Assembly (NCBI GenBank): GCA_043800905.1
Contig: JAZDMO010000007.1
Coordinates: 1,627-65,626 of the forward strand
Length of the DNA stretch: 64,000 bases
Direction: 5' to 3'
Source of the DNA: Patescibacteria group bacterium
Lineage (GTDB): Bacteria > Patescibacteriota > Minisyncoccia > Phycocordibacterales > UBA12079
Under the pieces are notes generated by a model. The model did not search any database, was not told the origin of the DNA, and was given only the letters and a program-made list of their open reading frames with translations. This document shows positions 12,640-39,078 of this stretch, piece after piece. A program made the translations under genes and the position numbers. The first letter of the stretch is position 1, and every line of letters starts with the position of its first letter.

Positions 12640-12679
12640 AAATTTAGGGATCGTTTAATAAATTATGTTTCTTTTTGTG

Positions 12680-12712: not shown

Positions 12713-12754
12713 TTTATTTATTATTACTAGATTACGAAGTAATTTAGTATTCAT

Positions 12755-12843: not shown

Positions 12844-12859
12844 TTATATATTAAGACTT

Positions 12860-13340: not shown

Positions 13341-13461
13341 GGGTGGTGGTGAATTTGCGGGTTTTCCCCAGCAAGAGAATATATTTCTTTTCTGTTTTCT
13401 TGTATAATTATAATTAAGATTTGGGTTTTAAAAAATCCAATAGCTCAATAAATTAAATTTT

Positions 13462-14520: not shown

Positions 14521-14532
14521 GAAAAAATAATT

Positions 14533-15738: not shown

Positions 15739-15800
15739 ACAGTTTTCAACTTTCAATTATCAGTTTTCATTAAATTTTCAATTGATAAATTATCAGTGAC

Positions 15801-16429: not shown

Positions 16430-16574
16430 AAATTGAGAATTGTAAACTGAAAATTGTTTTGATTTATCCCCAGAAAGACTTTCTTTTCTTTGCTTTTTGG
16501 GAGTATAATCAAATAAACGCAAATTATATTTGTTATTAATTATTAGTTATTAATTTAATATTATTAAAAATAAT

Positions 16575-17069: not shown

Positions 17070-17077
17070 TCTAAATT

Positions 17078-17500: not shown

Positions 17501-18198
17501 TTATGTTTTTTAATTTTATAAAAAAAGAAAAGCAAGGTTTTCTAGAATATCAGACGGGGTTTACCCCATCAGAAATTTTTATGAAGATATTTGGTGATAT
17601 AAAGAAAAAAATAAGCAGTTTTTTAAAAAATGAAAAGCAAGGTTTTCTAGAATATCAGACGGGGTTTACCCCGTCAGGAATTTTTAATAGTTTGTTATCT
17701 ATAATAAGAAACAAAATGAAAAAAAATCTTTTTAATAAAAAACAAGATTCTTTGAAATTCCAATCGGGGTTTACTTTAACTGAACTTTTGGTGGCTATCG
17801 CGATTATTGGAATTTTATCTTCCATTGTTTTAACTTCAATGAGTGGGGCGAGAGAAAGGGCTAAGGATGGAAAAAGAATTTCTGATATTAAACAAATTCA
17901 GTTAGCTTTAGAATTATATTACGATGTAAATTCTGCTTATCCTGTAGATAATGGTTCTCAAAATATTTTGTATAACGATCCTAAACCTTTAACTAATTTT
18001 TTAAAAATTTCTCAAGACCCCGATGGAACTAATTACCATTATTGGAGTACGGGACAAGATTATCACCTAGGAGCTGTCTTACAACAAACAAATAATGCTT
18101 TAGATGACGACGATGATGCTACTGGTGGTTTTGAAGGTTCTAGTTCTGATTGTGGTTCTGTGACCGGAACAGATTTTTGTTACGATGTAACTCCTTAA
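17464..18198 (+). CDS. type IV pilin preceded by two tandem degenerate prepilin-leader cassettes; the functional start is probably the ATG at 17716
   Basis: The ORF contains two copies of an approx. 107-bp unit encoding KEKQGFLEYQTGFTPSEIF (17527-17580 and 17633-17687). These are followed by a canonical prepilin MKKNLFNKKQDSLKFQSG|FTLTELLVAIAIIGILSSIVL. Confidence 0.6.
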   Translation: MYRNWLCNNYPLIMFFNFIKKEKQGFLEYQTGFTPSEIFMKIFGDIKKKISSFLKNEKQGFLEYQTGFTPSGIFNSLLSIIRNKMKKNLFNKKQDSLKFQSGFTLTELLVAIAIIGILSSIVLTSMSGARERAKDGKRISDIKQIQLALELYYDVNSAYPVDNGSQNILYNDPKPLTNFLKISQDPDGTNYHYWSTGQDYHLGAVLQQTNNALDDDDDATGGFEGSSSDCGSVTGTDFCYDVTP

Positions 18199-18204
18199 AT
18201 TAAA

Positions 18205-18246
18205 AATGAAAAAAGCGGTGGGCTGGTGTCCACCGCTTTTTTTAAT
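18205..18246 (+). terminator. intrinsic terminator after the pilin at 17464
   Basis: aaaaagcggtgggctggtgtccaccgcttttttt: a GC hairpin plus a T-run. Confidence 0.6.
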
Positions 18247-18407
18247 AGAGTTATAAAAAGTAATCATTGTTTTGTTTAATTATTAATTATATTATTTAAA
18301 TGGGATAATTTTTAATCCTTTTAATTGAAGGTATTGTTTAATCAAATAGACACAAATTACATTTGTTATTAATTATTAGTTATTAATTTAATATTATTAA
18401 AAATAAG

Positions 18408-18917
18408 ATGAAGAAATTTATGAAAAAGGATATAAAAGGTTTTTCCCTTATTGAACTTTTGATTGTGGTTGCAATCATGGGAATTCTATCTGCTGTTGTT
18501 TTGAGTTCTCTAGGAACCGCTCGTCAAAAAGCAAGAGACGCTAGAAGAATTTCAGACGTAAAGGATGCCGCTAAGATTTTAGTTATTGCTTCTGATGTGG
18601 GAGGGGTGAGCATCTCAGGTTGTGGTTCTCCTGATGTCGCCTTAAAAACTTGTGGAGACCCTGATATTGAAAATGATCCTTTTATGGATTTAAGAAGTTA
18701 TTCTGACCCTTCTGTTTCTGAAGAAGTTTGTTCAAGTGGAAGAATTATTGCCGACGGTCCCTGTGAGTACGGAATATCTGATATGACTGGTGATGAAGCG
18801 CCCACCACAGAAGATTACCAAATCTGTTTTTTCCTTGAATATGGAGCGGGAGATCTTTCCGCTGGCCTAAATTCTGTTGTGGGTCCAATTGGAAACTTGG
18901 TAGCTGGTTGTAACTAA
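18408..18917 (+). CDS. type IV (major) pilin, paralog B
   Basis: The first approx. 60 aa and last approx. 35 aa are nearly identical to the gene at 16575. The central approx. 70 aa diverge. 78 bp of upstream sequence is conserved with 16497-16574. Confidence 0.75.
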   Translation: MKKFMKKDIKGFSLIELLIVVAIMGILSAVVLSSLGTARQKARDARRISDVKDAAKILVIASDVGGVSISGCGSPDVALKTCGDPDIENDPFMDLRSYSDPSVSEEVCSSGRIIADGPCEYGISDMTGDEAPTTEDYQICFFLEYGAGDLSAGLNSVVGPIGNLVAGCN

Positions 18918-18984
18918 ATTAATTTTTTAAGAAATTTAAGGTTTTTAATAACATAAATAATTATTATTTTCTTCTATTATTTAC

Positions 18985-19022
18985 TTATAAAGTAAAACCC
19001 GTCTTTAGGCGGGTTTTTATTA
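18985..19022 (+). terminator. intrinsic terminator after pilin paralog B
   Basis: gtaaaacccgtctttaggcgggtttttatt. Confidence 0.55.
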
Positions 19023-19028
19023 TCCTTT

Positions 19029-19132
19029 CTCGCAATGACGGTCCGCTTAGGGCGGACCGTCATTGCGAGGAAAAAATTAAGCCTCAAAAGTTTTAAAACT
19101 TTTGAGGCTTAATTTTTGACGTGGCAATCCAG
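19029..19132. repeat. palindromic repeat element (ctcgcaatgacggtccgc..gcggaccgtcattgcgagg + aagcctcaaaagttttaaaacttttgaggctt + gacgtggcaatccag)
   Basis: Two perfect hairpins in series. Same family as 12755-12843 and 31203-31302. Confidence 0.6.
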
Positions 19133-19225
19133 TAAAAATTTAAGTCTTTAAATCTAACCGAAACTATTTTTCAGATGGAAGGGTTTTGTTTTAATGTTCT
19201 GGTGTTTTAATGCTATAATATTTTT

Positions 19226-20050
19226 ATGGAAAAATACCTACTTTATTTTTTTGTTTTTGTTTTGGGAACTATTATTGGTTCTTTTTTGAATGTAGTGATT
19301 TTACGTTTTAAAAAAAATTCTTTAAATGGAAGTTCTTCTTGTCCCCGATGTAAAAAAAATTTAAGATGGTTTGAATTGATTCCAGTTTTAAGCTTCCTTT
19401 TTTTGAAGGGCAGATGTCGCTATTGTCAAAAGAAAATTTCTTGGCAGTATCCTTTAGTAGAAATAGCAACAGGATTATTATTTTTATTTTCTTTTATTTT
19501 TTCCGCCCAAGGCGGATCCGCCTTGGGCGGACAATTTTTCATTAACCTTATTATTTTATGGGTTGTTTTTAGTTTATTGGTAGTAATTTTTGTTTATGAT
19601 TTATACCATAAAATTATTCCTAATATTTTTGTATATCTTTTTATATTATTTTCTTTTTTAAAAGTCATCATAACTTTTCAAAATTTTTCTTTCGGGGCTG
19701 ATATTTGGGCGGGGTTTTTAGTCTCTTTTCCTTTTGCTTTTTTATGGTTTGTTTCAGGAGGAAGGTGGCTTGGTTTTGGAGATGTAAAATTAGCCTTAGG
19801 TATTGGTTGGTTTTTAGGTTTAGTTCAGGGTTCTACTGCAGTTATTTTAGCTGTTTGGATGGGAGCCTTGGTTGGTTTGATTTTGGTTGGTTTAACAAAG
19901 TTATCCGAAAAACATAGATTGTTTTTTAGGCTTAATAATTTTACAATTAAAAGTGAATTACCTTTTGCCCCCTTTTTAATATTAGGTATTGTGATCACTT
20001 TTTTCTTTGACTTAGATGTTTGGGGCTTGGGAGCTTTGCTTCATGGTTAA
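19226..20050 (+). CDS. pilD: prepilin peptidase PilD (A24 family) carrying an in-frame palindromic insertion
   Basis: N-terminal zinc-ribbon CPRC...CRYC, a polytopic membrane domain, and the C-terminal GFGDVKL catalytic Asp region. 19503-19530 is the perfect palindrome ccgcccaaggcggatccgccttgggcgg, which encodes SAQGGSALGGQ in frame. Confidence 0.8.
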   Translation: MEKYLLYFFVFVLGTIIGSFLNVVILRFKKNSLNGSSSCPRCKKNLRWFELIPVLSFLFLKGRCRYCQKKISWQYPLVEIATGLLFLFSFIFSAQGGSALGGQFFINLIILWVVFSLLVVIFVYDLYHKIIPNIFVYLFILFSFLKVIITFQNFSFGADIWAGFLVSFPFAFLWFVSGGRWLGFGDVKLALGIGWFLGLVQGSTAVILAVWMGALVGLILVGLTKLSEKHRLFFRLNNFTIKSELPFAPFLILGIVITFFFDLDVWGLGALLHG

Positions 20051-28094: not shown

Positions 28095-28165
28095 CGCGGG
28101 ATGGTGTAGTGGTCGCACGGGAGGCTCATAACCTCCAGGGGTTTGTTCGATTCAAACTTCCGCAA
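28095..28165 (+). tRNA. tRNA-Met (anticodon CAU), initiator-like with a C1·A72 mismatch
   Basis: Manual fold: acceptor cgcggga/ttccgca with 1-72 C·A; D-stem gtgt/gcac; anticodon stem ggagg/cctcc with loop ctCATaa; 4-nt variable loop; T-arm gtttg-ttcgatt-caaac. CCA is not encoded. Followed by terminator aaaaccaccttaattaaggtggtttt (28170-28205). Confidence 0.6.
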
Positions 28166-28261
28166 CAAGTAAACAAAACCACCTTAATTAAGGTGGTTTT
28201 GTTTTGGGAAGTATTTAAAATTTTTTGTAAATATGTTATATTGTTTTTCGTATTAATAAAT

Positions 28262-28335
28262 GTCGGCGTAGCTCAGTTGGTTAGAGCGCAGCACTCATAA
28301 AGCTGAGGTCGAAGGTTCAACTCCTTCCGTCGACA
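28262..28335 (+). tRNA. tRNA with CAU anticodon: elongator Met or Ile2 (lysidine)
   Basis: Acceptor gtcggcg/cgtcgac; D-arm gctc-agttggtta-gagc; anticodon loop ctCATaa; T-arm gaagg-ttcaact-ccttc. Confidence 0.65.
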
Positions 28336-28387
28336 CACAGATTGTTGAGAAAATTAAGGATATCTGTTAAAGTATGTGTGCACTTTG

Positions 28388-28460
28388 CGGGTGTAGCTCA
28401 GCTGGTTAGAGCGTCCGCCTGTCACGCGGAAGGTCGAGGGTTCAAGTCCCTTCACTCGCG
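28388..28460 (+). tRNA. tRNA-Asp (GUC)
   Basis: Acceptor gcgggtg/cactcgc; anticodon stem tccgc/gcgga with loop ctGTCac; T-arm gaggg-ttcaagt-ccctt. A terminator hairpin follows at 28470-28500. Confidence 0.75.
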
Positions 28461-28551
28461 CAAAATTAAAAAACTGAAACTTTTTGTTTCGGTTTTTTAA
28501 TTTATATTGAAAATATATAGTTTTTCATATATTATTTAAATTGGTTTAAAA

Positions 28552-28627
28552 GCCAATGTAGCTCAGTTGGTAGAGCACCCCCATGGTCAGGGGGAGGTCT
28601 GCGGTTCAATCCCGCACATTGGCTCCA
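28552..28627 (+). tRNA. tRNA-Thr (GGU), CCA encoded
   Basis: Acceptor gccaatg/cattggc; anticodon stem ccccc/ggggg with loop atGGTca; T-arm tgcgg-ttcaatc-ccgca; 3' tcca. Confidence 0.75.
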
Positions 28628-28648
28628 ATTATAGAGGAGATGAGTTTC

Positions 28649-28721
28649 GCCCTCTTAGCTCATCTGGTAGAGCAACGGTATCGTAAATCGTAGGTGGTCG
28701 GTTCAAGTCCGACAGAGGGCT
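28649..28721 (+). tRNA. tRNA-Thr (CGU)
   Basis: Acceptor gccctct/agagggc; D-arm gctc-atctggta-gagc; anticodon stem acggt/atcgt with loop atCGTaa; T-arm gtcgg-ttcaagt-ccgac. Confidence 0.65.
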
Positions 28722-28807
28722 CAATAGATATTTTGGTAGTCGCCTCATCGGCGACCCGCTGGAGAGGAGGGTTCAATTCTGCGAGGTGACTCATGAGTTT
28801 TAATTAT

Positions 28808-29741: not shown

Positions 29742-29957
29742 ATGAAGAAGATAATTTTACTATCATTTATAATAATGGTCACTCCATTTTTAGGGATTCC
29801 AAGTCTTTGGAAAAATGTAATTTTTGTTTTTGCTGGTTTAATTATCATTTTGAATACTTTTTCTGAAAATAAAAAAAATACATCTCATAGTCGTGAAGAA
29901 GTGAAAGATAATGTTTATGTTGAAAATGATAGTTCTGCAGAAATTAAAACAGAATAA
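29742..29957 (+). CDS. hypothetical small membrane protein
   Basis: 71 aa, two TM helices. Overlaps the start of the next ORF. Confidence 0.25.
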   Translation: MKKIILLSFIIMVTPFLGIPSLWKNVIFVFAGLIIILNTFSENKKNTSHSREEVKDNVYVENDSSAEIKTE

Positions 29958-31116
29958 GAAAAAAACTTTTGGTTTTATTGGCATTGGTGCTCTTTTTATG
30001 GGAGTGCTTTTATTGTTTTTCTTAACAGATTTATTTGATTTAACTATTAATTTTAAAAATTCTCGAATTATTGTTGAAAGTAAAACTGAAGAGGTAAAAG
30101 AAGCTTCTCATGTTGAATTACCAAATTCAGTTAGGGGTTTATATATGACTAGTTGGGTAGCTGGAACTAAAAGTATTCGAACTCCTTTGGTGCAATTAAT
30201 TGAAGACACAGAAATTAACGCTATTGTAATTGATATTAAAGACTATACAGGTAAGATCGCTTTTGAGGTGGAAGATGAATATTTGAAAAAATTTGATGCG
30301 GTGGAAAATCGTATTCCTGATATTAAAGAATTTTTGGAATATTTGCATAGCAAAGGTATTTATGTGATTGGGAGAATTTCTGTTTTTCAAGACCCCAACC
30401 TTGTAGCCTTAAGACCAGATTTAGCTGTTAAACAGTCAAAAAATGGACCGGTATGGAAAGATCGAAAAGGGATTTCTTGGCTAGATGCTGGTTCTCAGGA
30501 TGTTTGGGATTATGTAATTGCCATAGCGCATGAATCCTATAAGTTTGGTTTTGATGAATTAAATTTTGATTATATTCGTTTTCCTTCAGATGGCGATATG
30601 AATAATATTTATTATCCTATCAGTGAAGAACGGGTAGAGGCTGATCCTGAAAAAGGAAAAGCTAAAGTAATGCAAGAGTTCTTTGTTTATTTAGATAATA
30701 AAATGAGTGACATTGATGCAGTAATTTCAGCAGATTTATTTGGAATGGTAACAACCAATTCAGATGATTTAAATATCGGTCAGGTTTTGGAATATGCTTT
30801 GCCATTTTTTGATTTCATTTGTCCCATGGTTTACCCTTCACATTATCCAACTGGTTTTATTGGTTTGAAGAATCCAGCTGAACATCCCTATGAAGTAGTT
30901 AAATATTCTATGGAGAGAGCAGTGGGGAAAGCTTTGAATGCTAGTTCAACTCCAAGTAAATTAAGACCATGGTTACAAGATTTTGATTTAGGCGCCGATT
31001 ATACAGCCTCTATGGTACGAGCCCAAATTCAAGCGACTTATGATGTTGGATTAAATTCTTGGTTATTGTGGTCGGCGTCGAACAAATATACTAAAGAAGC
31101 TCTCTACGATAAATAA
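29911..31116 (+). CDS. putative glycoside-hydrolase-like TIM-barrel protein (DUF4015/GHL-type), membrane anchored
   Basis: N-terminal TM helix. NAIVIDIKDYTGKIAFE...GIYVIGRISVFQD...ISWLDAGSQDVWDYVIAIAHESYKFGFDELNFDYIRFP is characteristic of the DUF4015 putative glycosyl hydrolase family. Confidence 0.45.
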   Translation: MFMLKMIVLQKLKQNKKKTFGFIGIGALFMGVLLLFFLTDLFDLTINFKNSRIIVESKTEEVKEASHVELPNSVRGLYMTSWVAGTKSIRTPLVQLIEDTEINAIVIDIKDYTGKIAFEVEDEYLKKFDAVENRIPDIKEFLEYLHSKGIYVIGRISVFQDPNLVALRPDLAVKQSKNGPVWKDRKGISWLDAGSQDVWDYVIAIAHESYKFGFDELNFDYIRFPSDGDMNNIYYPISEERVEADPEKGKAKVMQEFFVYLDNKMSDIDAVISADLFGMVTTNSDDLNIGQVLEYALPFFDFICPMVYPSHYPTGFIGLKNPAEHPYEVVKYSMERAVGKALNASSTPSKLRPWLQDFDLGADYTASMVRAQIQATYDVGLNSWLLWSASNKYTKEALYDK

Positions 31117-31123
31117 AAATTAA

Positions 31124-31162
31124 AATAAAAGGCTCGGCGCTAAAGCGCTGAGCCTTTTATTT
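31124..31162 (+). terminator. intrinsic terminator
   Basis: aaaataaaaggctcggcgctaaagcgctgagccttttatttt. Confidence 0.6.
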
Positions 31163-31202
31163 TAGTATATAGTATTCGGTATTTTGTATTTTGTATAAAT
31201 AA

Positions 31203-31302
31203 GTGACGGTCGCCGAAGGCGACCGTCATTGCGAAATATTTTTAGAGAATTTTTTTGAAAAAATTTTTCAAAAAAATTCTCTAAAAATATTGTGGCAATC
31301 CA
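31203..31302. repeat. palindromic repeat element (gtgacggtcgccgaaggcgaccgtcattgcg + long AT palindrome + gtggcaatccag)
   Basis: gacggtcgccgaaggcgaccgtc hairpin; tagagaatttttttgaaaaaatttttcaaaaaaattctcta palindrome; family terminus gcaatccag. Confidence 0.55.
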
Positions 31303-31404
31303 GAAAAAACTCTTAAATTTTAAACGGCTCAACCTGTTGAGCCGTTTAACAAGGCTATATTGCTTGTTATTTTATGAAAGAAAGTTATTTTTAAAAATTC
31401 ACAC

Positions 31405-31440
31405 TAATGTTGGTTTAACATTGGTGTGTTGTGTTATAAT
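31405..31440 (+). promoter_or_regulatory. candidate sigma70-type promoter with extended -10 (TGtTATAAT) for the ATPase gene
   Basis: ttggtg (31411-31416) ...18 bp... tgttataat (31432-31440). This lies inside the 5' end of the tracked ORF, so the real start codon is probably downstream (possibly GTG 31450, leaderless). Confidence 0.3.
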
Positions 31441-33234
31441 TACAAGAACGTGGAAGAAGAAAAAAACCCAATTACATATTTTGCTGAAGTTGATCGACGA
31501 AATAGGAAAACCCCTTTCGGAATTAAAGCTTCCGATAGAACTCGTCATGTCTATGTCATCGGAAAAACCGGAATGGGAAAATCTACTATGTTGGAAAACA
31601 TGGCTGTGCAAGATATTCAACAAGGAAATGGCCTATGTTTTATTGACCCGCACGGTAGTTCAGTAAAAAAATTTTTAGATTATGTGCCTGAAAATAGAAT
31701 TGATGATGTAATCTATTTTGCCCCTTTTGATGTGGATCACCCCATTGCTTTTAATGTAATGGAAGACGTGGGAGCAGACAAAAGACACTTAGTAGCTCAG
31801 GGTTTGCTTTCGGCTTTCAAGAAAATCTGGGGTGAAGAAACTTTTTCAGACAGAATGGAACACATTACTAATAATACTTTATTGGCTCTTTTGGAATATC
31901 CAGGATCTACCATGTTGGGAATGACTAAAATATTTACCGATGCTAAATATCGAAAGAAGGTGGTGGATAATGTAACTGACCCTTCGGTAAAAGCTTTTTG
32001 GACAGAGGAGTTTGCTGGTTGGGATGATCGTTACCGAAAAGATGCCTATGCCGCTATTTTGAACAAGGTGGGGCAATTTACTTCTAATCCTTTGATTCGA
32101 AATATTATTGGACAAGAAAAATCTTCTTTTGATTTTAGGGATATTTTAGATTCAAAAAAAATTTTGTTGGTGAATCTTTCTATTGGGCAAATTGGTGAAG
32201 CTAACGCAGATTTGTTGGGTTCTATGTTGACTACCAAAATTTATTTAGCCGCCATGAGCCGTGCCGATGTGCGTTCAGCTGAATTACATAATTTACCGAA
32301 TTTTTATTTATATATTGATGAATTTCAAAATTTAGCCAATGATTCTTTTGCTGATATTCTTTCACAGGCGAGAAAGTATAAATTAAATTTAACTTTAGCT
32401 CACCAGTATATTGAACAGATGCCAGAGAAGGTCGCTGCTGCTGTCTTTGGAAACGTGGGGACCATGATTACTTTTAGAGTTGGTGCTACTGATGCAGAAG
32501 TTTTAGAAAAAGAATTTGCGCCTGAATTTACTGCTGAAGATTTAGTTAATCTTGGTTTTGCTCAAATATATCTAAAATTAATGATAGATGGAATTGGTTC
32601 TAATCCTTTTTCAGCAAAAACTTTACCACCAATTCAAGTTCCAAATTTGTCTTTTAAAAATGAAATTCTGGAAGCTTCTCGAAAAAGTTTTACTGTACCA
32701 AGAGAAGAAATCGAAAAGAAAATTATGGAATGGCATGCTTCTGGTGATCCTGCTGGGAAAAAACAAAATCAACCAGTTGTGCCTGTTCCGGTTCAAGAAA
32801 GAAAAGAAATTCCTAATAAAAATTTTAAACCAAGAGATTTTTCTTCAAAAAACAATATTAATCAAGCAAATTCAGCTCCGGTTCGCACTCCAGAAAAACG
32901 TCTAAGTTTAAATGAATTAGGAAATCAGTCCAAAAACATTCGTCAATCAAAATTTGTTAAGCCTAAAATAATTATGCCAGATACTAAGGATTTGAGAACG
33001 GCATTGTCTGAAGCCTTACAAAATGTACAAAATAATTCTTTGAAAAAAGAGAATGAAATGAAAGTTGAAGTAAAGGCGCAGGAAGATACTACTCCAAAAA
33101 CAATTATTAACCCTCCTACAGAAGTAAAAAAGGAAATCAAAGAAAGAGATGAAAGAAAATTGGTGGTACAAGAAATTCCTAAAGATCGGTTGGAAAAACT
33201 TTTGTATGTAAAAAGTCCCGATGAGGAAAAATAG
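31426..33234 (+). CDS. TraD/VirD4/TraG-like (type IV coupling protein family) or DUF87 HerA-like P-loop ATPase with a long K/E-rich low-complexity tail
   Basis: Walker A VIGKTGMGKST; CFIDPHG; Walker B/DE IDEFQNL; the ARKY(K/G)..L.LAHQ motif shared by T4CP and DUF87 ATPases. The C-terminal approx. 170 aa are low-complexity and charged. Confidence 0.55.
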   Translation: MLCYNYKNVEEEKNPITYFAEVDRRNRKTPFGIKASDRTRHVYVIGKTGMGKSTMLENMAVQDIQQGNGLCFIDPHGSSVKKFLDYVPENRIDDVIYFAPFDVDHPIAFNVMEDVGADKRHLVAQGLLSAFKKIWGEETFSDRMEHITNNTLLALLEYPGSTMLGMTKIFTDAKYRKKVVDNVTDPSVKAFWTEEFAGWDDRYRKDAYAAILNKVGQFTSNPLIRNIIGQEKSSFDFRDILDSKKILLVNLSIGQIGEANADLLGSMLTTKIYLAAMSRADVRSAELHNLPNFYLYIDEFQNLANDSFADILSQARKYKLNLTLAHQYIEQMPEKVAAAVFGNVGTMITFRVGATDAEVLEKEFAPEFTAEDLVNLGFAQIYLKLMIDGIGSNPFSAKTLPPIQVPNLSFKNEILEASRKSFTVPREEIEKKIMEWHASGDPAGKKQNQPVVPVPVQERKEIPNKNFKPRDFSSKNNINQANSAPVRTPEKRLSLNELGNQSKNIRQSKFVKPKIIMPDTKDLRTALSEALQNVQNNSLKKENEMKVEVKAQEDTTPKTIINPPTEVKKEIKERDERKLVVQEIPKDRLEKLLYVKSPDEEK

Positions 33235-34675
33235 TTTACAAAAAAACACAGAGAAGTTTATTTTTATGATCGCTCTGTGTTTTTTATTGCCTATTATTTC
33301 TATGGCTCAAGTTGAAATCGTGGAAATTATGTATGACTTACCTGAAGGAAGTGATAGTGGAAGGGAGTGGATAAGAATTTATAATAATGATTCAGAAAGT
33401 GTTAATTTGGATGGTTGGAGACTTTTTGAAGCAGAGACTAATCATAAAATAGTTTCCAGTATTGAAGGCGATTCTATGATTTTGGCAGGAAATACTTCAG
33501 CAATTATTGTAGATAATGTGGAAAAATTTAAAATAGATTGGCCTAATTTTAGTGGTTTAATTTTTGATAGTGCTTTTTCACTTTCCAATACCGGTGAACA
33601 ATTAATTTTAAGAAATATGGATTTAGAAGATGTAGATTCTGTTTCCTACCAAAAAGAGGATGGAGCCAATGGTGATGGAAATACTTTGCAAAAAATTAAT
33701 GGATTTTGGTCCTCTGCTTTGCCCACCTTAGGAACACCTAGCCCCTCCGACTCAGAAGAACAAGACTTGGAGATAGTATCTCCAAGTGATGAAAGTTCGG
33801 GTGAGGAAGAGGTTTCTTTTTCAAATCAGTCTGGAGTTTCTTATTTTCAGCCAAAAATAAAAGCTCATATTTTAGTTTCTCCAAATTTACCAACAGCAGG
33901 AGCAGATTTTTTATTTGAAGGCGAGTCTGTTGGTTTGAATAATTTTCCTTTGGAAAATGAAAAATATATTTGGTCTTTCGGAGATGGGGCTAGAGTGGAA
34001 GGTCAGAAAGTTTTACATGCTTTTGTTTATCCAGGAGATTATTTAGTAACTCTAGAAGTGGTTTCTGGAAAATATTCAGCTATAGATAGAATTAAAATGA
34101 AGGTGGTTGCTCCTGAAATTTTTATTTCGAATGTTTCTAGAGAAATGAATAATTCGTTTATAGAATTAAATAATCCTTCAAAAAATAATATTGATTTATC
34201 GTGGTGGCGTTTTCGGATAGATAATCAATTTTTTACTTTACCTAAAAATACAATACTTTTAGCCAATACTAAAATTGCTTTTTCATCCAAGGTTACTAAC
34301 CTGTATCCACAAATAGGACAGATGGTCTATTTGCTTTATCCTAACGGAGAAATTTTTTATAATTATTTAGAAAATAAAATTGCTGAAGTTCTTCCTCAAT
34401 CAAGTGTCGCTGTTAAAGTTTCTGAACCAATTCAAAAAGAAAACATTATTCCAGAAATAAAAAACACTCAAACCCAAACAGCTTCGGTGGCGGGGAGCCT
34501 TTCTTTTTTGGGAACTTCAACCGAGCAAAAAATAGATGAAGAAAAATTAGATTTTTCTTCTGAAGAGCCTACAGAAAAATCAAAACTATTAAATAAATGG
34601 AGATTGCTTACTATTGCCATCGCTACCATGGCCGTGGGTGGAACAATTTTTGTTTCGGCTATCGATTCAAAATAG
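33221..34675 (+). CDS. secreted/anchored protein with two lamin-tail domains (LTD)
   Basis: Signal peptide. LTD-like repeat 1 EIVEIMYDLPEGSDSGREWIRIYNNDSESVNLDGWRLFE; repeat 2 EIFISNVSREMNNSFIELNNPSKNNIDLSWWRFRI. C-terminal TM anchor TIAIATMAVGGTIFV. Confidence 0.55.
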   Translation: MRKNSLQKNTEKFIFMIALCFLLPIISMAQVEIVEIMYDLPEGSDSGREWIRIYNNDSESVNLDGWRLFEAETNHKIVSSIEGDSMILAGNTSAIIVDNVEKFKIDWPNFSGLIFDSAFSLSNTGEQLILRNMDLEDVDSVSYQKEDGANGDGNTLQKINGFWSSALPTLGTPSPSDSEEQDLEIVSPSDESSGEEEVSFSNQSGVSYFQPKIKAHILVSPNLPTAGADFLFEGESVGLNNFPLENEKYIWSFGDGARVEGQKVLHAFVYPGDYLVTLEVVSGKYSAIDRIKMKVVAPEIFISNVSREMNNSFIELNNPSKNNIDLSWWRFRIDNQFFTLPKNTILLANTKIAFSSKVTNLYPQIGQMVYLLYPNGEIFYNYLENKIAEVLPQSSVAVKVSEPIQKENIIPEIKNTQTQTASVAGSLSFLGTSTEQKIDEEKLDFSSEEPTEKSKLLNKWRLLTIAIATMAVGGTIFVSAIDSK

Positions 34676-34711: not shown

Positions 34712-35581
34712 ATGAAAAAGAAAATAGTTTTAGTGACCGGCGGTGCTGGTTTTATAGGTTCTCATCTAATTGAAGAGTTAGTTAAAGATGAAAATAACCG
34801 AGTTATCTCTCTTGATAATTATTTTACTGGTAAAAAAGAAAATCATATTGTTGGGGCTGAATATATCGAAGGGCATACTAAAGATATTGAATTCCTTGTG
34901 ACTGAAATTCCCGACATTGTTTATCATTTAGGTGAATATTCTCGGGTGTTAACCTCTTTTGAAGATATTGCTTTGGTTTGGGAAATGAATAAATTGGGAA
35001 CTTTTAAAGTTTTAGAATTTTGTCGTAAGAATAAAATTCGTTTGATTTACGCGGGATCAAGTACTAAATTCGGAGAATTCAGTGATAATAATGGAAATGG
35101 TAAAGATCAAAGTCCCTATGCTTGTTTTAAGGCATCGAATACTGATTTGGTAAATAATTATGGAAATTGGTTTGGTTTGGATTATGCGATTACTTATTTT
35201 TATAATGTTTCTGGTGGGCGAGAAATGCGTACTGGAAAATATGCAACTTTGATTGGAATTTTTACTGATAAAAAATTAAAAGGCGAAAAACTTTCAGTGG
35301 TGGCTCCAGGGACACAAAAAAGAGCTTTTACTCATGTGGAAGATACTGTTCGTGGACTTATCTTAGTCGGAGAGAAAGGTCAGGGTGATGGTCACTGTAT
35401 TAGTTCTGAAAAAGAATATTCTATTTTAGAAATTGCTCAAATGTTTGGAGGAGAAATAGAAATGTTGCCAGAAAAAAGAGGTGATAGAAATTTTTCAAAA
35501 ATGGATTTAACTAAAATGAAAGAGTTAGGCTGGGTTGCTGAAAAAGATATAAAAGATTATATTCAAAATATAATTAAATAA
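34712..35581 (+). CDS. NAD-dependent epimerase/dehydratase (extended SDR; UDP-glucuronate decarboxylase/UXS-like)
   Basis: Rossmann VLVTGGAGFIGSHL, DNYFTGKKEN, catalytic YACFK (YxxxK). Confidence 0.7.
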   Translation: MKKKIVLVTGGAGFIGSHLIEELVKDENNRVISLDNYFTGKKENHIVGAEYIEGHTKDIEFLVTEIPDIVYHLGEYSRVLTSFEDIALVWEMNKLGTFKVLEFCRKNKIRLIYAGSSTKFGEFSDNNGNGKDQSPYACFKASNTDLVNNYGNWFGLDYAITYFYNVSGGREMRTGKYATLIGIFTDKKLKGEKLSVVAPGTQKRAFTHVEDTVRGLILVGEKGQGDGHCISSEKEYSILEIAQMFGGEIEMLPEKRGDRNFSKMDLTKMKELGWVAEKDIKDYIQNIIK

Positions 35582-35586
35582 CATAT

Positions 35587-36753
35587 ATGCGAAAAAAGAT
35601 TTTAATATTTTCAACAGCCTACGAGCCCTTTATGTCTGGGGCAGAAGTGGCTGTTAAAGAAATCACTGATCGTTTAGGCGAAAGCTGTGAATTTTTCATG
35701 ATTACAGCACGGATGGATAAAAATTTGTCTAAGAAAGAAAAAATAGGAAATATAAATGTTTTTCGTGTGGGTTTTGGTTTTAAAAATCTGGATAAATTTC
35801 TCCTGCCTTTTTGCGGATTGTGGGTGGCTTTAAAAAATTATAAGAAAGAGAATTATCAAATTGTTTGGTCTATTATGGCAAGTCAGGCGAGTATCGGAGC
35901 TTCTTTTTTTAAGATTTTAAAACCACAGGTTAAATTATTGTTAACTTTGCAAGAAGGAGATGAAGAGGAATATTTAAAAAGATATGTTGGGGGGAGTGAT
36001 TTTTTGTATCGATTTTTAATTCAACCATGGCATCTTTTGGTTTTTCATAAGGCGGATTTGATTCAGACTATTAGTTTTGATTTAAAAAATAGAGCTTTGA
36101 AAAATGAGGTTGTTTGTCCTATTGAGGTTATTCCTAACGGAGTAGATATTGAAAATTTTAGTCAAAAATATTCGGTGACGGAATTAGATTCTTTAGCGAA
36201 AAGTTTAGGTAAAGAAGAAGACGACATTTTTTTAGTACACACGGGGCGTTTTAATTATAAAAATGGTTTAGAAGATTTGATCAAGTCTTTAATTTATTTA
36301 CCCCTTAATATTAAATTACTTTTATTGGGTGGGGGGATTGATGAAGAAAAATTAAAGGAGGTTGTGATGGAACGAAGTTTGGAAAAAAGAGTTAAGTTTT
36401 TGGGTTTTATTAATCATCAAGAATTACCAAAGTATTTGAGAATATCAGATATCTTTGTTCGTCCTTCTTTATCGGAAGGTTTGGGAAATTCTTTTTTGGA
36501 AGCCATGGTGGTTAAATTAGCAGTGATTGCTACCCCAGTGGGAGGTATTCCTGATTTTTTAAAAGACGAAGAAACCGGTTTATTTTGTATCGTACATAAT
36601 CCGGAATCCATAGCCGAAAGAGTGAAGAAAATTTTGGCTGATAAAAAATTGAAAGATTATATAGTTGAAAAAGCTTATAAAATGGTTATTAAAAAATATG
36701 ATTGGAATTTGATTGCTGTTGATATGGGAAAAATATTTGATTCTTTGGTATGA
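35587..36753 (+). CDS. glycosyltransferase family 4 (GT-B, group 1)
   Basis: C-terminal PSLSEGLGNSFLEAMVVKLAVIATPVGGIPDF (EX7E-type motif). Confidence 0.7.
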   Translation: MRKKILIFSTAYEPFMSGAEVAVKEITDRLGESCEFFMITARMDKNLSKKEKIGNINVFRVGFGFKNLDKFLLPFCGLWVALKNYKKENYQIVWSIMASQASIGASFFKILKPQVKLLLTLQEGDEEEYLKRYVGGSDFLYRFLIQPWHLLVFHKADLIQTISFDLKNRALKNEVVCPIEVIPNGVDIENFSQKYSVTELDSLAKSLGKEEDDIFLVHTGRFNYKNGLEDLIKSLIYLPLNIKLLLLGGGIDEEKLKEVVMERSLEKRVKFLGFINHQELPKYLRISDIFVRPSLSEGLGNSFLEAMVVKLAVIATPVGGIPDFLKDEETGLFCIVHNPESIAERVKKILADKKLKDYIVEKAYKMVIKKYDWNLIAVDMGKIFDSLV

Positions 36754-37859
36754 AAAATATTTTAATTACAACTGGGGTTTATCCTCCAGAAATAGGTGGT
36801 CCTGCGACTTATTCTAAGTTACTTTTTGATGAATTGCCTAAACGAGGCTATGAAGTAGAAGTTTTGCCTTTTAATGAAGTCCGCCATTTACCAAAAGGGA
36901 TTCGTCATATTGTCTATTTTTTTAAAATTTTAAAAAAGGCTAAGGGTGTTGATATTATTTATGCCCAAGATCCAGTTAGTGTTGGTTTCCCTTCAATGTT
37001 GATGGCTAGAATTTTAAACAAAAGATTTTTTGTGAGAATTGCTGGTGATTATGCTTGGGAACAGGGAGTTCAGAGATTTGGGATTACGGAAGATTTAGAT
37101 TCTTTTGCTGAAAAAGAAAAAGGTTATAATTTTTTTGTAAAAATATTTAAAACAATTCAAACTTGGGTGGCTGGAGATGCTGAAAATGTCATTGTCCCTA
37201 GTTATTATTTTAAAGGAATTATTGAAAAATGGGGAATAGATTCTGAAAAAATAAAGGTAATTTACAACGGAATTAGATTAAACGAGTCAAACCTGCCTGC
37301 CGGCAGGCAGGAGTCGAAAGTCCATAATGTCGAAGGGAAGGTTTTGTTGTCAGTGGGGAGATTGGTTCCATGGAAAGGTTTTAAAGTTTTAATTGAATGT
37401 ATACCAGAGCTTTTGAAAGAAATTCCGAATTTAAAATTAAAAATTGTGGGAAGTGGTCCGCAAAAAGAAGAATTAGAAAATTTAATTAATGAATTGGATT
37501 TAAACGAAAGTGTGGTTTTGGCAGGGCAATTATCTAGAGAGGAATTGTTGGAAGAAAAGAAAAGGGCTGATATTTTTGTTTTTAATACTAATTGGGAATC
37601 TTTTTCTTTTGATACTGTGGAAGCCATGTCTTTGGGTTTGCCTGTGATTGCAACAGAAGTGGGGCCTTTGCCTGAATTGATAGAAAATGGAAAAGAAGGA
37701 ATTTTAGTTGAACCGAATAATAAAGACCAGATTATAGAATCGATTCTGTTTGTTCTAAAAAATAATAAATTTAGAGAAAAAATTATTAAAAATGCGAGAT
37801 TAAAAGTTCAGCGATTTTCTATTGAAAATACTTTGGATGAATTAGAAAAAGTTCTTTAA
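36750..37859 (+). CDS. glycosyltransferase family 4 carrying an in-frame copy of the 20-bp palindrome
   Basis: GT4 C-domain SFDTVEAMSLGLPVIATEVGPLPELI. 37292-37311 cctgcctgccggcaggcagg is translated as LPAGRQ in the interdomain region. Confidence 0.7.
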   Translation: MKNILITTGVYPPEIGGPATYSKLLFDELPKRGYEVEVLPFNEVRHLPKGIRHIVYFFKILKKAKGVDIIYAQDPVSVGFPSMLMARILNKRFFVRIAGDYAWEQGVQRFGITEDLDSFAEKEKGYNFFVKIFKTIQTWVAGDAENVIVPSYYFKGIIEKWGIDSEKIKVIYNGIRLNESNLPAGRQESKVHNVEGKVLLSVGRLVPWKGFKVLIECIPELLKEIPNLKLKIVGSGPQKEELENLINELDLNESVVLAGQLSREELLEEKKRADIFVFNTNWESFSFDTVEAMSLGLPVIATEVGPLPELIENGKEGILVEPNNKDQIIESILFVLKNNKFREKIIKNARLKVQRFSIENTLDELEKVL

Positions 37860-37898
37860 TTTTAAATACTGGATACCAAATACTGAATACTATATACT

Positions 37899-39029
37899 AT
37901 GTATATGAGGCTTTTATTGCTTAGTACTGATAAAAAAATATTGGAGGAAAATAGTGCTGTTCGTCAAAGAATGCTTGATTACGCTGGTTTAGTGGACCAT
38001 TTAGATATAACTGTTTTTAATTTGGCCGATAAAGATAAGGAGATTAAGGATAAAATTAAAATTGCCCAGAATGCTTTTGTTTATCCCACTAATTCAAAAT
38101 TTAAGTTAAATTACTACAAAGACGCCATCAACATTGCCATTGAAGAACTAGACGAAATTGACTTAGTGAGTGCTCAAGATCCTTATGAAACAGGTTTTAT
38201 TGCTTATAAAATTTCAGAGAAGATAAATACAAAATTAGAATTACAAATTCATACAGATATTTTTAATCCTAATTTTATTAGATTTTCTTGGGGAAATCGT
38301 TTCCGTTATTTTGTGGCAAAATTTTTATTGGATAAAGCGGATTCTATTCGGGTAGTTTCTAAAAGAATTAAATTGTCTTTACCAGAAAAATATCAAAGTA
38401 GAATAACTGTTTTACCAATTTTTATTGATCCTTTTTTTATTTCTAATCAAAAAGTTGGTTTTGACTTACATAAAAAATATCCACGTTTTAAATTTATTAT
38501 TGTGATGATAAGTCGTTTATCTCGGGAAAAAAACATTGGTTTAGCTTTGTACGCTTTGAAAGATGTTTTAAAAATTCTTCCTAAAACTGGTTTAGTAATT
38601 GTAGGAGACGGTCCTGAAAGAAAAAATTTAAAGAGGATCGCTAGAAAAACAGGAGTAGAAGAAAATGTTATTTTTAAATCTTGGGTAGAAAATCCTGTGC
38701 CTTATTACAAGAGTGCGAATTTATTTTTAAACACTTCTTTTTATGAAGGCTATGGAATGTCTTTAGTTGAAGCAACTTTATCAGGTTGCCCAGTGATGAC
38801 CACTAAGGTTGGAATTGTGGGGGAAATTTTGAGTAGTAATAATGCTTTCTTGGTGGAAATGAATAATCGAAAAAATTTAGCGAAAAATATAATCAATGCA
38901 CAACAACATCCTGAATTATTGGAAGCTTGTGCTAAAAAAGCTCAACAAGATTATATGAACAAATCTTTTCATTCAAGAAATGAATATTTAAGAGGTTTTA
39001 AAGAAATGTGGGAGAAAACTTCCCTATAA
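37899..39029 (+). CDS. glycosyltransferase family 4
   Basis: TSFYEGYGMSLVEATLSGCPVMTTKVGIVGEIL. Confidence 0.7.
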   Translation: MYMRLLLLSTDKKILEENSAVRQRMLDYAGLVDHLDITVFNLADKDKEIKDKIKIAQNAFVYPTNSKFKLNYYKDAINIAIEELDEIDLVSAQDPYETGFIAYKISEKINTKLELQIHTDIFNPNFIRFSWGNRFRYFVAKFLLDKADSIRVVSKRIKLSLPEKYQSRITVLPIFIDPFFISNQKVGFDLHKKYPRFKFIIVMISRLSREKNIGLALYALKDVLKILPKTGLVIVGDGPERKNLKRIARKTGVEENVIFKSWVENPVPYYKSANLFLNTSFYEGYGMSLVEATLSGCPVMTTKVGIVGEILSSNNAFLVEMNNRKNLAKNIINAQQHPELLEACAKKAQQDYMNKSFHSRNEYLRGFKEMWEKTSL

Positions 39030-39035
39030 AAAGAA

Positions 39036-39078
39036 AAGGCCCTACAAGGACGAAACCTTGTAGGGTGATCTTTTCCGT
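39036..39078 (+). terminator. intrinsic terminator
   Basis: aaggccctacaaggacgaaaccttgtagggtgatctttt. Confidence 0.55.

What the first reader, a model, noticed from the sequence alone, without database searches (positions are those of the whole stretch)
31426..34675. TraD/VirD4-like coupling-protein ATPase with a long K/E-rich tail, translationally overlapping a double-LTD surface protein
The ATPase has Walker A, an IDEFQNL Walker B and the ARKY..L.LAHQ motif of T4CP/DUF87 translocases, but no obvious N-terminal TM anchor. Its approx. 170-aa C-terminus is a low-complexity charged tail. Its stop overlaps the start of the LTD protein (33221 vs 33234), suggesting co-expression. A DNA translocase-like motor coupled to an extracellular LTD protein is an unusual pairing and could form a DNA-handling module accessory to the pilus.
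Basis: partly seen in the sequence, partly recalled or inferred. Interest (0 to 1): 0.5.

Follow-up and report, generated by a model that had tools for sequence, protein, structure and literature searches.

The report
Anchorless coupling-protein ATPase paired with surface protein
A candidate-phyla-radiation (Patescibacteria) chromosome encodes a VirD4/TrwB-like motor ATPase that has lost its membrane anchor and carries a long basic floppy tail. Its gene is tightly linked to a gene for an acidic, membrane-anchored LTD-PKD-LTD surface protein. This gene pair is conserved across many related uncultured bacteria, but nothing ties it to DNA handling or to the pilus.

Summary
ORF 31450-33234 (or from GTG 31426) encodes a VirD4/TrwB-type coupling-protein (T4CP) ATPase. 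It has Walker A and B motifs and an all-alpha domain, no transmembrane segment, and a 164-aa basic disordered tail. ORF 33221-34675 encodes a signal-peptide-bearing LTD-PKD-LTD ectodomain protein with a C-terminal membrane anchor; it overlaps the ATPase stop by 14 nt if ATG 33221 is used.

The pairing is conserved but not universal. 24 of 69 species-representative ATPase loci have the LTD gene immediately downstream. About three quarters of LTD homologue loci (about 90% of the close ones) have the ATPase just upstream. 3 of 3 Nomurabacteria-type loci, picked only by ATPase similarity and contig length, also have the pair, in an unrelated genomic context.

The "DNA-handling module accessory to the pilus" reading is not supported. 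The first LTD domain is strongly acidic (pI about 4.1) in all 20 homologues examined. No nuclease or competence gene was found among the neighbours examined. The pilus cluster lies 11 kb away, beyond housekeeping genes. In this window the pair heads an operon that runs into a surface-glycan cluster.

The ATPase belongs to the "orphan" T4CP homologues already reported in 96% of Patescibacteria genomes. I found no earlier description of the anchorless long-tailed architecture or of the LTD partner. The function remains inferred.

The parts
31450..33234 (+). T4CP-like (VirD4/TrwB-type) ATPase gene, 594 aa. The longest ORF starts at GTG 31426; homologues and the NCBI model support GTG 31450.
31450..32739 (+). 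Nucleotide-binding domain with inserted all-alpha domain (aa 1-430). Extremely conserved: 55-73% identity across homologues.
   Evidence: Alignment A1. In the AF2 model, helices 112-234 are inserted between strands. Foldseek: TrwB E 3e-7, TM 0.50.
31561..31584 (+). Walker A motif, GKTGMGKS.
   Evidence: invariant in A1.
32305..32328 (+). Walker B motif, YLYIDEFQ (D290 and E291 invariant).
32740..33231 (+). 164-aa basic disordered tail with two conserved short motifs: L[KR]xA[LF], and a C-terminal [EK][IV]Px3-4Lxx[ILMV][LF] helix.
33221..33234 (+). 14-nt overlap of the ATPase stop (TAG 33232-33234) with the LTD gene start (ATG 33221). The alternative start is ATG 33266.
   Evidence: (P0121 is 469 aa).
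33221..34675 (+). LTD-PKD-LTD surface protein gene, 484 aa: signal peptide, three beta-sandwich domains, two disordered Ser/Glu-rich linkers, C-terminal TM helix, 3-aa cytoplasmic end.
33308..33736 (+). LTD domain 1 (aa 30-172), pI 4.07, net charge -16.
33866..34120 (+). PKD domain (aa 216-300).
   Evidence: Foldseek ColG PKD TM 0.78.
34121..34396 (+). LTD domain 2 (aa 301-392), near neutral.
34595..34663 (+). C-terminal transmembrane anchor (aa about 459-481).
31107..31178 (+). Terminator-like GC hairpin plus T-run after the DUF4015 gene. It separates that gene's transcript from the ATPase gene.
31204..31428 (.). Hairpin-rich leader upstream of the ATPase start. Hairpins at 31204-31228, 31235-31291 (28-nt perfect arms), 31320-31349 and 31400-31428.
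   Evidence: no Rfam family above threshold.
34712..39029 (+). Co-directional downstream genes, probably in the same operon: NAD-dependent epimerase and three GT4 glycosyltransferases.
   Evidence: The gap is 36 nt with no terminator until 39039.
39039..39066 (+). First strong terminator-like hairpin downstream of the pair.
29911..31116 (+). DUF4015 putative glycosyl hydrolase with an N-terminal TM. It is the most frequent upstream neighbour of the ATPase (61 loci), but here a terminator separates the two.

Best explanation
Shown: the first gene encodes the transmembrane-less, long-tailed paralogue of the VirD4/TrwB-type coupling-protein ATPase family that is near-universal in Patescibacteria. 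It has a RecA-like P-loop domain with an inserted all-alpha domain, intact Walker A and B motifs, and a basic disordered tail of 100-366 aa carrying two conserved short docking motifs. The second gene encodes a Sec-exported, C-terminally anchored, acidic LTD-PKD-LTD 'beads-on-a-string' surface protein. The two genes form an old, tightly linked pair, often with overlapping stop and start codons, in class Paceibacteria. In this window they head an operon that continues into a surface-glycan cluster of about 23 kb. Inferred: by homology to TrwB, the ATPase works as a cytoplasmic hexameric NTP-driven motor or substrate receptor. Lacking its own anchor, it would be recruited through its tail motifs. 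F-plasmid TraD docks TraM through its C-terminal peptide in a comparable way (that comparison rests on my own knowledge). Possible docking sites are a membrane partner such as the TM-anchored paralogue, the distant VirB4 machinery, or, in most lineages, the conserved acidic [DE]x[FIY]x[IL][IV][ED] cytoplasmic end of the LTD protein. The LTD protein is most likely a host- or surface-contact adhesin or envelope protein that is co-expressed with the motor. This would resemble the adhesins co-transcribed with T4SS genes on Gram-positive conjugative plasmids. The pair is therefore best read as a cell-surface / host-contact module, not a pilus accessory. The transported substrate (DNA or protein) is unknown.
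For: T4CP identity: Pfam TrwB_AAD_bind, TraG-D_C and T4SS-DNA_transf score above their cut-offs. NCBIfam TraD and CD1115 VirD4-like models hit. In Foldseek, TrwB, DotL and Cagbeta (E about 3e-7) rank above HerA and VirB4. The protein is 30% identical (E 5e-52) to an 812-aa Embleya T4CP that sits between VirB4-like, PrgI and relaxase genes. No TM. Tail conservation across 114 proteins: net positive charge in 96%, motifs present in 80-84%. Family context: more than 8000 close hits, all those named being Patescibacteria; 21,689 50%-identity clusters at E<=1e-3. Published work reports T4CP homologues in 2,918 of 3,035 genomes, only 148 of them near virB4 (PMC12102498). Pair conservation: 24 of 69 GTDB loci have the LTD gene immediately downstream. 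38 immediately upstream plus 6 nearby, out of 66 LTD loci. LTD+ and LTD- loci are interleaved across ATPase clusters. The pair is retained where DUF4015 and GT neighbours are absent. 3 of 3 Nomurabacteria loci picked without reference to LTD have the pair. Surface-protein nature. Operon structure.
Against: No experiment or interaction prediction links the two proteins. In this window the LTD protein has only 3 cytoplasmic residues, so direct binding by the cytoplasmic ATPase is hard to picture here. About 65% of species-representative ATPase loci have no LTD gene within 8 kb, and the ATPase tail motifs are equally conserved in those loci. DUF4015 and GT4 genes are more frequent neighbours than LTD within the closest 80 loci, so part of the adjacency reflects general synteny. 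The published t4cp of Ca. Southlakia was non-essential while the T4SS was essential. Hexamer formation and NTPase activity are inferred from homology only.
Confidence: 0.5

Rival explanations
1. The LTD ectodomain captures extracellular DNA and the T4CP-like motor pulls it into the cell (or pushes it out), as an accessory to the type IV pilus / competence system.
For: T4CPs are DNA-dependent translocase-like ATPases (TrwB fold). LTD domains occur in extracellular nucleases such as ExeM (PMC6085458). The ATPase tail is basic in 96% of homologues, and one subfamily has a treble-clef Zn finger at the start of the tail. A type IV pilus cluster lies at 8145-20050, and a pilin-like N_methyl gene sits next to the ATPase in a few loci. 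Patescibacteria are naturally competent (PMC10633639).
Against: LTD1 has pI 4.1-4.3 and net charge -9 to -21 in 20 of 20 homologues. No nuclease domain is present in the LTD protein. No ComEC, ComEA or nuclease appeared among the neighbour genes scanned in about 160 loci. The pilus cluster is 11 kb away, behind LigA, GatA and tRNA genes, and was not seen among the recurrent neighbours in other loci. The structural matches are to S-layer proteins and adhesins, not DNA-binding proteins.
Confidence: 0.15
2. The adjacency is conserved gene order without any direct functional link. The ATPase serves the distant VirB4-type T4SS, or some other cytoplasmic task, and the LTD protein is an independent surface protein that happens to sit at the edge of a variable envelope locus.
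For: 45 of 69 species-representative loci lack the LTD gene. The whole RsmI-like / small ORF / DUF4015 / ATPase / GT4 order is syntenic in these taxa. The window's LTD protein has almost no cytoplasmic part. The ATPase tail motifs do not depend on an LTD neighbour. LTD paralogues exist without the ATPase, next to LCAT-like lipases.
Against: The pair survives where all other synteny is gone: L101 next to EF-Tu, and L127, L147, L167 and L168 in a different context. It persists even though the LTD protein has diverged to about 31% identity. About 90% of close LTD orthologues are immediately downstream of the ATPase. Gaps are mostly between -30 and +40 nt.
Confidence: 0.25
3. The ATPase takes part in biogenesis or export of the surface glycan or envelope encoded by the flanking genes (DUF4015 hydrolase, epimerase, GT4s, Wzm/Wzt).
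For: In the window the ATPase is the first gene of an operon with an epimerase and three GT4 genes. DUF4015 lies upstream in 61 loci and GT/epimerase genes downstream in 56 loci. Other neighbours are Wzy_C, GT2, MurA/MurD, GH3 and M23 peptidase genes. The glycan cluster with Wzt extends to about 57.8 kb.
Against: I know of no T4CP-family ATPase that acts in glycan export (own knowledge). The cluster has its own Wzt ABC ATPase. A terminator separates DUF4015 from the ATPase gene. Deep-branch loci keep the ATPase-LTD pair but have no GT or DUF4015 genes.
Confidence: 0.1

Closest known systems
TrwB (R388) / VirD4 / DotL / Cagbeta type IV coupling proteins
   Same: P-loop NBD with an inserted all-alpha domain. 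Best structural matches, and the Pfam and NCBIfam T4CP models hit.
   Different: No N-terminal transmembrane domain. Chromosomal and highly conserved. No VirB4 gene in the 64-kb window. Sequence identity to TrwB is only about 16%.
'Orphan' VirD4-type T4CP homologues of Patescibacteria (Quinonero-Coronel et al. 2025, PMC12102498)
   Same: Same annotation (NCBI: type IV secretion system DNA-binding domain-containing protein) and same taxon. Near-universal and encoded away from virB4.
   Different: That paper did not describe, as far as my searches of it show, the anchorless versus TM-anchored architectures, the conserved basic tail, or the LTD partner (0 occurrences of 'LTD' and of 'transmembrane').
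F-plasmid TraD C-terminal extension that binds TraM (own knowledge)
   Same: A T4CP with a long disordered C-terminal extension ending in a short conserved docking peptide.
   Different: As I recall, the TraD tail is acidic and binds a relaxosome protein. Here the tail is basic, the partner is unknown, and no relaxase was found among the genes scanned nearby.
TM-anchored paralogues in the same family (e.g. P0421, P0427, P0435) and Bacillus phage G gp156 / SPO1 gp27.4 (phrog_5156)
   Same: 45-54% identical NBD for the Patescibacteria-like relatives, and these also carry long low-complexity tails. The phage proteins are 23-29% identical; phrog_5156 E 2e-51.
   Different: They carry an N-terminal extension of about 300-460 aa that begins with hydrophobic helices. 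The window protein starts directly at the NBD.
ExeM/NucH-type LTD-containing extracellular nucleases
   Same: A secreted or surface protein with a lamin-tail domain.
   Different: No nuclease domain. The architecture is LTD-PKD-LTD plus a TM anchor, and LTD1 is strongly acidic.
Surface adhesins co-transcribed with Gram-positive T4SS genes (e.g. PrgB of pCF10; own knowledge)
   Same: A multi-Ig-like-domain surface protein co-expressed with T4SS-family ATPases. This is a plausible functional analogy.
   Different: No sequence relationship was tested. The anchoring is different (a TM helix rather than, as I recall, LPXTG). No other T4SS genes are in the operon.

Membership tests
VirD4/TraD/TrwB type IV coupling protein (T4CP) | P-loop NTPase domain with Walker A and Walker B | tested here: met
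   GKTGMGKS and YLYIDEFQ are present and invariant in 20 homologues.
VirD4/TraD/TrwB type IV coupling protein (T4CP) | NBD plus inserted all-alpha domain fold; profile match above the family threshold | tested here: met
   TrwB_AAD_bind 37.4 bits vs cut-off 20.5; TraG-D_C 27.6 vs 22; T4SS-DNA_transf 24.5 vs 20.1. Foldseek top hits TrwB, DotL and Cagbeta, E about 3e-7, TM about 0.5. In the AF2 model, helices 112-234 are inserted in the NBD.
VirD4/TraD/TrwB type IV coupling protein (T4CP) | N-terminal transmembrane domain anchoring the hexamer | tested here: not met
   Walker A begins at residue 38. The maximum 19-aa hydropathy is 1.34, and at most 1.58 in all 20 homologues. Close relatives with an N-terminal extension of about 400 aa that begins with hydrophobic helices do exist.
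VirD4/TraD/TrwB type IV coupling protein (T4CP) | Encoded with a T4SS (VirB4) and/or a relaxase | tested here: not met
   Every ORF of 500 aa or more in the window was scanned, and none is VirB4-like. No recurrent ATPase or relaxase cluster appeared among neighbours in 80 loci. The literature reports only 148 of 5,713 near virB4.
VirD4/TraD/TrwB type IV coupling protein (T4CP) | Hexameric ring; substrate recruitment and transfer | not testable with these tools
   Only a monomer model was available; there is no biochemistry.
HerA / FtsK-SpoIIIE translocases | Profile match above threshold; HerA barrel or FtsK alpha/beta/gamma domains | tested here: not met
   DUF87 scores 20.6 bits, below its cut-off of 23.2. 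There is no FtsK_SpoIIIE hit. HerA ranks below all T4CP structures.
Lamin-tail-domain (PF00932) proteins | LTD beta-sandwich domain above the Pfam threshold | tested here: met
   69.1 bits vs 34.3, in two stretches. The AF2 model has beta-sandwich domains at 31-166 and 301-382.
ExeM/NucH LTD extracellular nucleases | Endonuclease/exonuclease/phosphatase catalytic domain | tested here: not met
   Only LTD and PKD domains were detected.
Type IV pilus / competence accessory component | Conserved linkage to pil/com genes, or a pilin-like or ComE-like domain | tested here: not met
   The pilus cluster at 8145-20050 is separated from the pair by housekeeping and tRNA genes. Linkage was not seen among recurrent neighbours in other loci, apart from a pilin-like gene in about 7 loci.

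The most novel reading that the evidence does not exclude
The anchorless long-tailed T4CP paralogue and its translationally coupled bitopic LTD-PKD-LTD partner form a previously unrecognised two-component, envelope-spanning module of Paceibacteria, in effect a 'split' coupling protein. The surface protein would supply the membrane anchor and an extracellular host- or ligand-binding head. Its acidic cytoplasmic [DE]x[FIY]xI[IV][ED] end would recruit the basic tail of the hexameric motor. Host contact would thereby be coupled to ATP-driven transfer of DNA or protein, independently of the VirB4 machinery.
Probability: 0.15. Interest if true: 0.75.

Novelty: new variant of a known kind. Interest (0 to 1): 0.5.

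Why it matters
T4CP homologues occur in about 96% of Patescibacteria genomes, mostly away from virB4, and published work says they may have been exapted for an unknown function (PMC12102498). This analysis gives the question some concrete handles. First, there is a distinct anchorless paralogue with a conserved basic tail and docking motifs. Second, it has a specific, anciently linked surface-protein partner. Third, there is a sister TM-anchored architecture. These are testable leads for how ultra-small episymbionts organise their host-contact and transport machinery. If the pair turns out to be only syntenic, the result is still a cleaner annotation of two abundant dark-matter families.

Tried and rejected
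(1) HerA/FtsK assignment: rejected.

(2) Defence-system membership: PADLOC gave only weak mad8/HerA P-loop-level hits and no system context. Rejected.

(3) Phage or plasmid origin: the phage (Bacillus phage G, SPO1) and plasmid homologues are distant, at 23-39% identity. The window has uniform GC and housekeeping neighbours. It is chromosomal.

(4) Profile re-search for divergent LTD genes in the LTD-negative loci: an HMM built from the 32 hits found no additional hits, so the absences are real within +/-8 kb.

(5) Gene fusions of the ATPase and LTD (Rosetta-stone evidence): none among the 120 best hits listed for each of the three searches.

(6) Co-variation of the ATPase C-terminus (LYVKxPxENK) with LTD proteins that lack the cytoplasmic motif: seen, but discounted, because that stretch physically overlaps the LTD start and would move with it in any recombination.

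(7) C-terminal helix as a membrane-targeting sequence: it is amphipathic (muH 0.5-0.75) but has negative mean hydrophobicity, so it is more likely a protein-docking peptide.

(8) Rfam search of the hairpin-rich leader: only sub-threshold miRNA-like palindrome hits.

(9) Metatranscriptome lead (PMC10936435: highly expressed Ig-like/PKD proteins in Paceibacterales): the stored supplement text was cut and did not contain the locus tags I searched for, so homology could not be checked.

(10) Looking up the window's own contig by the exact protein sequence: not on record.


Full report
**What is at the coordinates**

The window is AT-rich (about 31% GC, with uniform positive GC skew on the + strand) and almost all genes are co-directional.

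The first protein contains GKTGMGKS (Walker A), YLYIDEFQNL (Walker B) and QARKYKLNLTLAHQY. Pfam places it in the coupling-protein families above their curated cut-offs: TrwB_AAD_bind 37.4 bits (cut-off 20.5), TraG-D_C 27.6 (22) and T4SS-DNA_transf 24.5 (20.1). DUF87/HerA scores 20.6, below its cut-off of 23.2, and FtsK_SpoIIIE does not hit. The best NCBIfam hits are TraD families and the 'VirD4-like, CD1115 family' model.

An AlphaFold2 model built on 20 homologues is confident for residues about 50-330 and shows a block of helices (112-234) inserted between strands of the P-loop domain. Foldseek against the PDB ranks TrwB, DotL and Cagbeta first (E about 3e-7, TM about 0.5 on the target). HerA (1.8e-5) and VirB4 (1.4e-4) rank lower.

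**Start codon, anchor and tail**

Homologues begin two or three residues before the conserved NPITYF motif, and the NCBI model (P0001) is 594 aa. GTG 31450 is therefore a better start than GTG 31426.

Walker A begins at residue 38. No 19-residue window reaches transmembrane hydropathy in this protein (maximum 1.34) or in 19 homologues (at most 1.58). The absence of an N-terminal anchor is real.

It is also a meaningful difference within the family. In an exhaustive search of 1.84 billion representatives, the family has 21,689 clusters at E<=1e-3 and 5,861 at E<=1e-30. The closest roughly 60 clusters start directly at the NBD. However, 48 of the best 150, at 34-54% identity, carry an N-terminal extension of 240-575 aa. 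In the four I read, that extension begins with hydrophobic helices. Pfam found no family in the extension of the two of those four that I scanned.

The last 164 residues are K 15%, E 10%, P 9%, N 9%, with pI 9.6 and net charge +9. They are predicted disordered, apart from two short helices. Across 114 homologues a tail is always present (100-366 aa, median 176) and is net positive in 96%. It carries two short conserved motifs: L[KR]xA[LF] in 92 of 115, and a C-terminal [EK][IV]Px3-4Lxx[ILMV][LF] in 97 of 115. The terminal helix is amphipathic but not hydrophobic overall, which suits a protein-docking peptide better than a membrane-inserting one.

One deep subfamily (Nomurabacteria-type, 700-850 aa) has a treble-clef CxxC-x17-CxxC zinc finger at the start of the tail. 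That domain type has been shown to bind zinc in Methanosarcina small proteins (PMC12704099).

**The second protein**

Pfam finds LTD (69.1 bits, two stretches) and a PKD domain between them. The AF2 model (pLDDT 72) shows the following elements:
- an N-terminal signal helix;
- three beta-sandwich domains (31-166, 214-296, 301-382);
- two disordered Ser/Glu-rich linkers;
- a C-terminal TM helix (454-483).

Only three residues follow the TM helix. Structural neighbours are S-layer proteins, biofilm adhesins and the ColG PKD domain, which is a generic 'beads-on-a-string' surface protein pattern. The first LTD domain is strongly acidic here (pI 4.07, net -16) and in all 20 homologues examined (pI 4.1-4.3, net -9 to -21).

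Most homologues, but not the window protein or its nearest relatives, end in a conserved acidic cytoplasmic motif, [DE]x[FIY]x[IL][IV][ED].

The 14-nt overlap with the ATPase stop depends on using ATG 33221. The NCBI model starts at ATG 33266. Homologues share the K/R-rich n-region that only the longer form supplies, so I favour 33221. In either case no terminator lies between the genes.

**Is the pairing conserved?**

Forward test. A scan of one genome per GTDB species returned 565 relatives, of which the best 80 loci were kept. Of the 69 with at least 1.5 kb downstream, 25 contain an LTD homologue, and in 24 it is the very next gene on the same strand. Gaps are mostly between -28 and +50 nt. 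A profile built from those hits found no hidden LTD genes in the other loci.

Reverse test. A metagenome scan with an LTD alignment gave 80 loci. Of the 66 with at least 600 bp upstream, 38 have the ATPase immediately upstream, 6 have it within about 2 kb, and 22 have none. Restricting to close orthologues (at least 240 bits), about 27 of 30 have it. Of the LTD homologues without an ATPase, the two whose downstream gene I scanned (L139, L125) are followed by an LCAT-like lipase of about 1000 aa; several others are followed by similarly large genes. They look like a paralogous class.

Distribution across the family. LTD-positive and LTD-negative loci are interleaved across ATPase sequence clusters. 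That pattern indicates an old association with repeated loss or relocation.

Independence from general synteny. Within the closest 80 loci, DUF4015 (upstream, 61 loci) and epimerase/GT4 genes (downstream, 56 loci) are more frequent neighbours than LTD. Part of the adjacency could therefore be plain conserved gene order. However, the pair persists where those neighbours are gone. L101 sits next to EF-Tu. L127, L147 and L132 lie in different contexts; in L127 the neighbours include a methyltransferase and a MurA-like gene. I also picked three members of the zinc-finger subfamily solely by ATPase similarity and contig length. All three have an LTD(-PKD) gene 6-28 nt downstream, in a context with no DUF4015 or GT4 genes. 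This holds even though the LTD protein there is only about 31% identical to the window's over part of its length.

I conclude that the two-gene unit is genuinely conserved in class Paceibacteria. It is optional for the ATPase but close to obligatory for the orthologous LTD protein.

**Local context**

A GC-rich hairpin with a T-run follows the DUF4015 gene (31107-31178). Four more hairpins fill the 330-nt leader before the ATPase start.

Downstream, the LTD gene is followed after 36 nt by an epimerase and three GT4 genes. The first strong terminator is at 39039-39066. Glycan genes then continue to about 57.8 kb: GT47-like, GT9, GT2, GT10, a radical SAM enzyme and a Wzt ABC ATPase.

The type IV pilus cluster (PilM, PilB, PilT, PilC, prepilin peptidase) lies at 8145-20050. 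It is separated from the pair by LigA, GatA, five tRNA genes, an RsmI-like methylase and DUF4015. Every ORF of 500 aa or more in the window was scanned, and none is VirB4-like.

**What it most likely is and does**

The ATPase belongs to the VirD4-type T4CP homologues that Quinonero-Coronel et al. found in 2,918 of 3,035 Patescibacteria genomes. Only 148 of the 5,713 copies are near virB4. The authors noted that the copy in Ca. Southlakia is non-essential and that exaptation 'cannot be ruled out'. It is homologous to bona fide conjugative T4CPs: 30% identity (E 5e-52) to an 812-aa Embleya protein encoded among PrgI-, VirB4-like and relaxase genes.

My best reading has two levels.

- Shown: this is an anchorless, long-tailed T4CP paralogue, paired with a surface LTD-PKD-LTD protein, at the head of an envelope operon.
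- Inferred: it is a cytoplasmic hexameric motor or receptor that is recruited through its tail motifs. The recruiting partner could be the TM-anchored paralogue, the VirB4 machinery or, in most lineages, the acidic cytoplasmic end of the LTD protein. The motor would work in a cell-surface / host-contact pathway alongside the co-expressed adhesin-like protein.

Two analogies come from my own knowledge. One is the TraD tail docking TraM in the F plasmid. The other is the adhesins co-transcribed with T4SS genes on Gram-positive conjugative plasmids.

The substrate is unknown. DNA remains possible, given the basic tail, the zinc finger in one subfamily, and the family's history. But the acidic ectodomain, the lack of any nuclease or competence gene among the neighbours examined, and the missing pilus linkage all argue against the specific 'extracellular DNA receptor plus pilus accessory' model.

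**Weak points**

- Nothing here demonstrates a physical or functional interaction.
- The window's LTD protein has virtually no cytoplasmic part.
- The ATPase tail motifs are conserved whether or not an LTD gene is adjacent.
- I could not examine whole genomes to see whether LTD-negative loci have the gene elsewhere.
- The sampled loci are mostly from one class.

**Novelty**

The family and its odd genomic distribution are published, and both genes carry generic NCBI names. My searches found no description of the anchorless versus anchored architectures, the conserved basic tail with docking motifs, the zinc-finger subfamily, or the LTD partnership. I rate it a new variant of a known kind, of moderate interest.

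Noticed in passing
window 31107-31449: The 330-nt leader between the DUF4015 gene and the ATPase gene holds five consecutive hairpins: a terminator-like one at 31107-31178, a perfect palindrome with 28-nt arms at 31235-31291, and a hairpin ending 22 nt before the GTG 31450 start. No Rfam family reached threshold. It may be regulatory.
   Followed up: partly
L127:2729-5008, P0241-P0360 (e.g. L167:5001-7286): A deep Nomurabacteria-type subfamily of the ATPase (700-850 aa) has a treble-clef CxxC-x17-CxxC zinc finger (PF23477 / TIGR04272) at aa about 446-478, directly after the NBD. The window protein has none.
   Followed up: partly
L167:89-1588 and L168:114-1607: A second, short-tailed T4CP paralogue (about 498 aa, 46% identical to the window ATPase over the NBD in L167) lies 3.4 kb upstream of the long-tailed, LTD-linked copy. 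In L167 it is followed by an unannotated 547-aa gene.
   Followed up: partly
P0421, P0427, P0435, P0452 (library representatives): Close relatives (46-54% identity in the NBD) carry an N-terminal extension of about 380-420 aa that starts with hydrophobic helices and also have long low-complexity C-terminal tails. Pfam found no family in the extension of the two I scanned (P0421, P0435). Phage phrog_5156 (Bacillus phage G gp156, SPO1 gp27.4) has the same layout.
   Followed up: partly
L139:4938-9189, L125:1197-5706 (also L142, L161): LTD-PKD-LTD paralogues that lack the upstream ATPase are followed by a large gene. In L139 and L125 it is an LCAT-like lipase/esterase of about 1000 aa. This may be a separate surface module.
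   Followed up: partly
window 29742-29957: A 71-aa hydrophobic small ORF overlaps the DUF4015 start. Homologues occur at the same position in 26 loci. It has no Pfam family.
   Followed up: partly
window 8145-20050: A type IV pilus cluster: PilM-like, PilB (10918-12639), PilT (13462-14520), PilC (14533-15738) and prepilin peptidase (19226-20050). The small ORFs between them were not annotated.
   Followed up: partly
window 34712-57815: A surface-glycan cluster of about 23 kb: epimerase, several GT4 genes, GT47-like, GT9, GT2, GT10-like, a B12-radical SAM enzyme and a Wzt ABC ATPase (55710-56975), with a probable Wzm next to it.
   Followed up: partly
window 28095-28722: A cluster of five tRNA genes (Met, Met, Asp, Thr-GGT, Thr-CGT) between the GatA-side genes and the RsmI-like methylase.
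   Followed up: yes
window 58839-63651: A HlyD-type membrane-fusion protein plus a 1030-aa AcrB-family RND transporter, in a lineage the cited literature describes as monoderm. This is unexpected for an RND tripartite-type pump.
   Followed up: no
window 1679-4469: A GmrSD_N-HNH nuclease (1679-2770) and an HTH-SocA/Panacea antitoxin-like gene (3786-4469): a probable defence / toxin-antitoxin islet near the window start.
   Followed up: no
L015:6717-7148 and about 6 other loci: A pilin-like gene with a prepilin N-methylation motif (about 150 aa) sits between DUF4015 and the ATPase in a subset of loci.
   Followed up: partly
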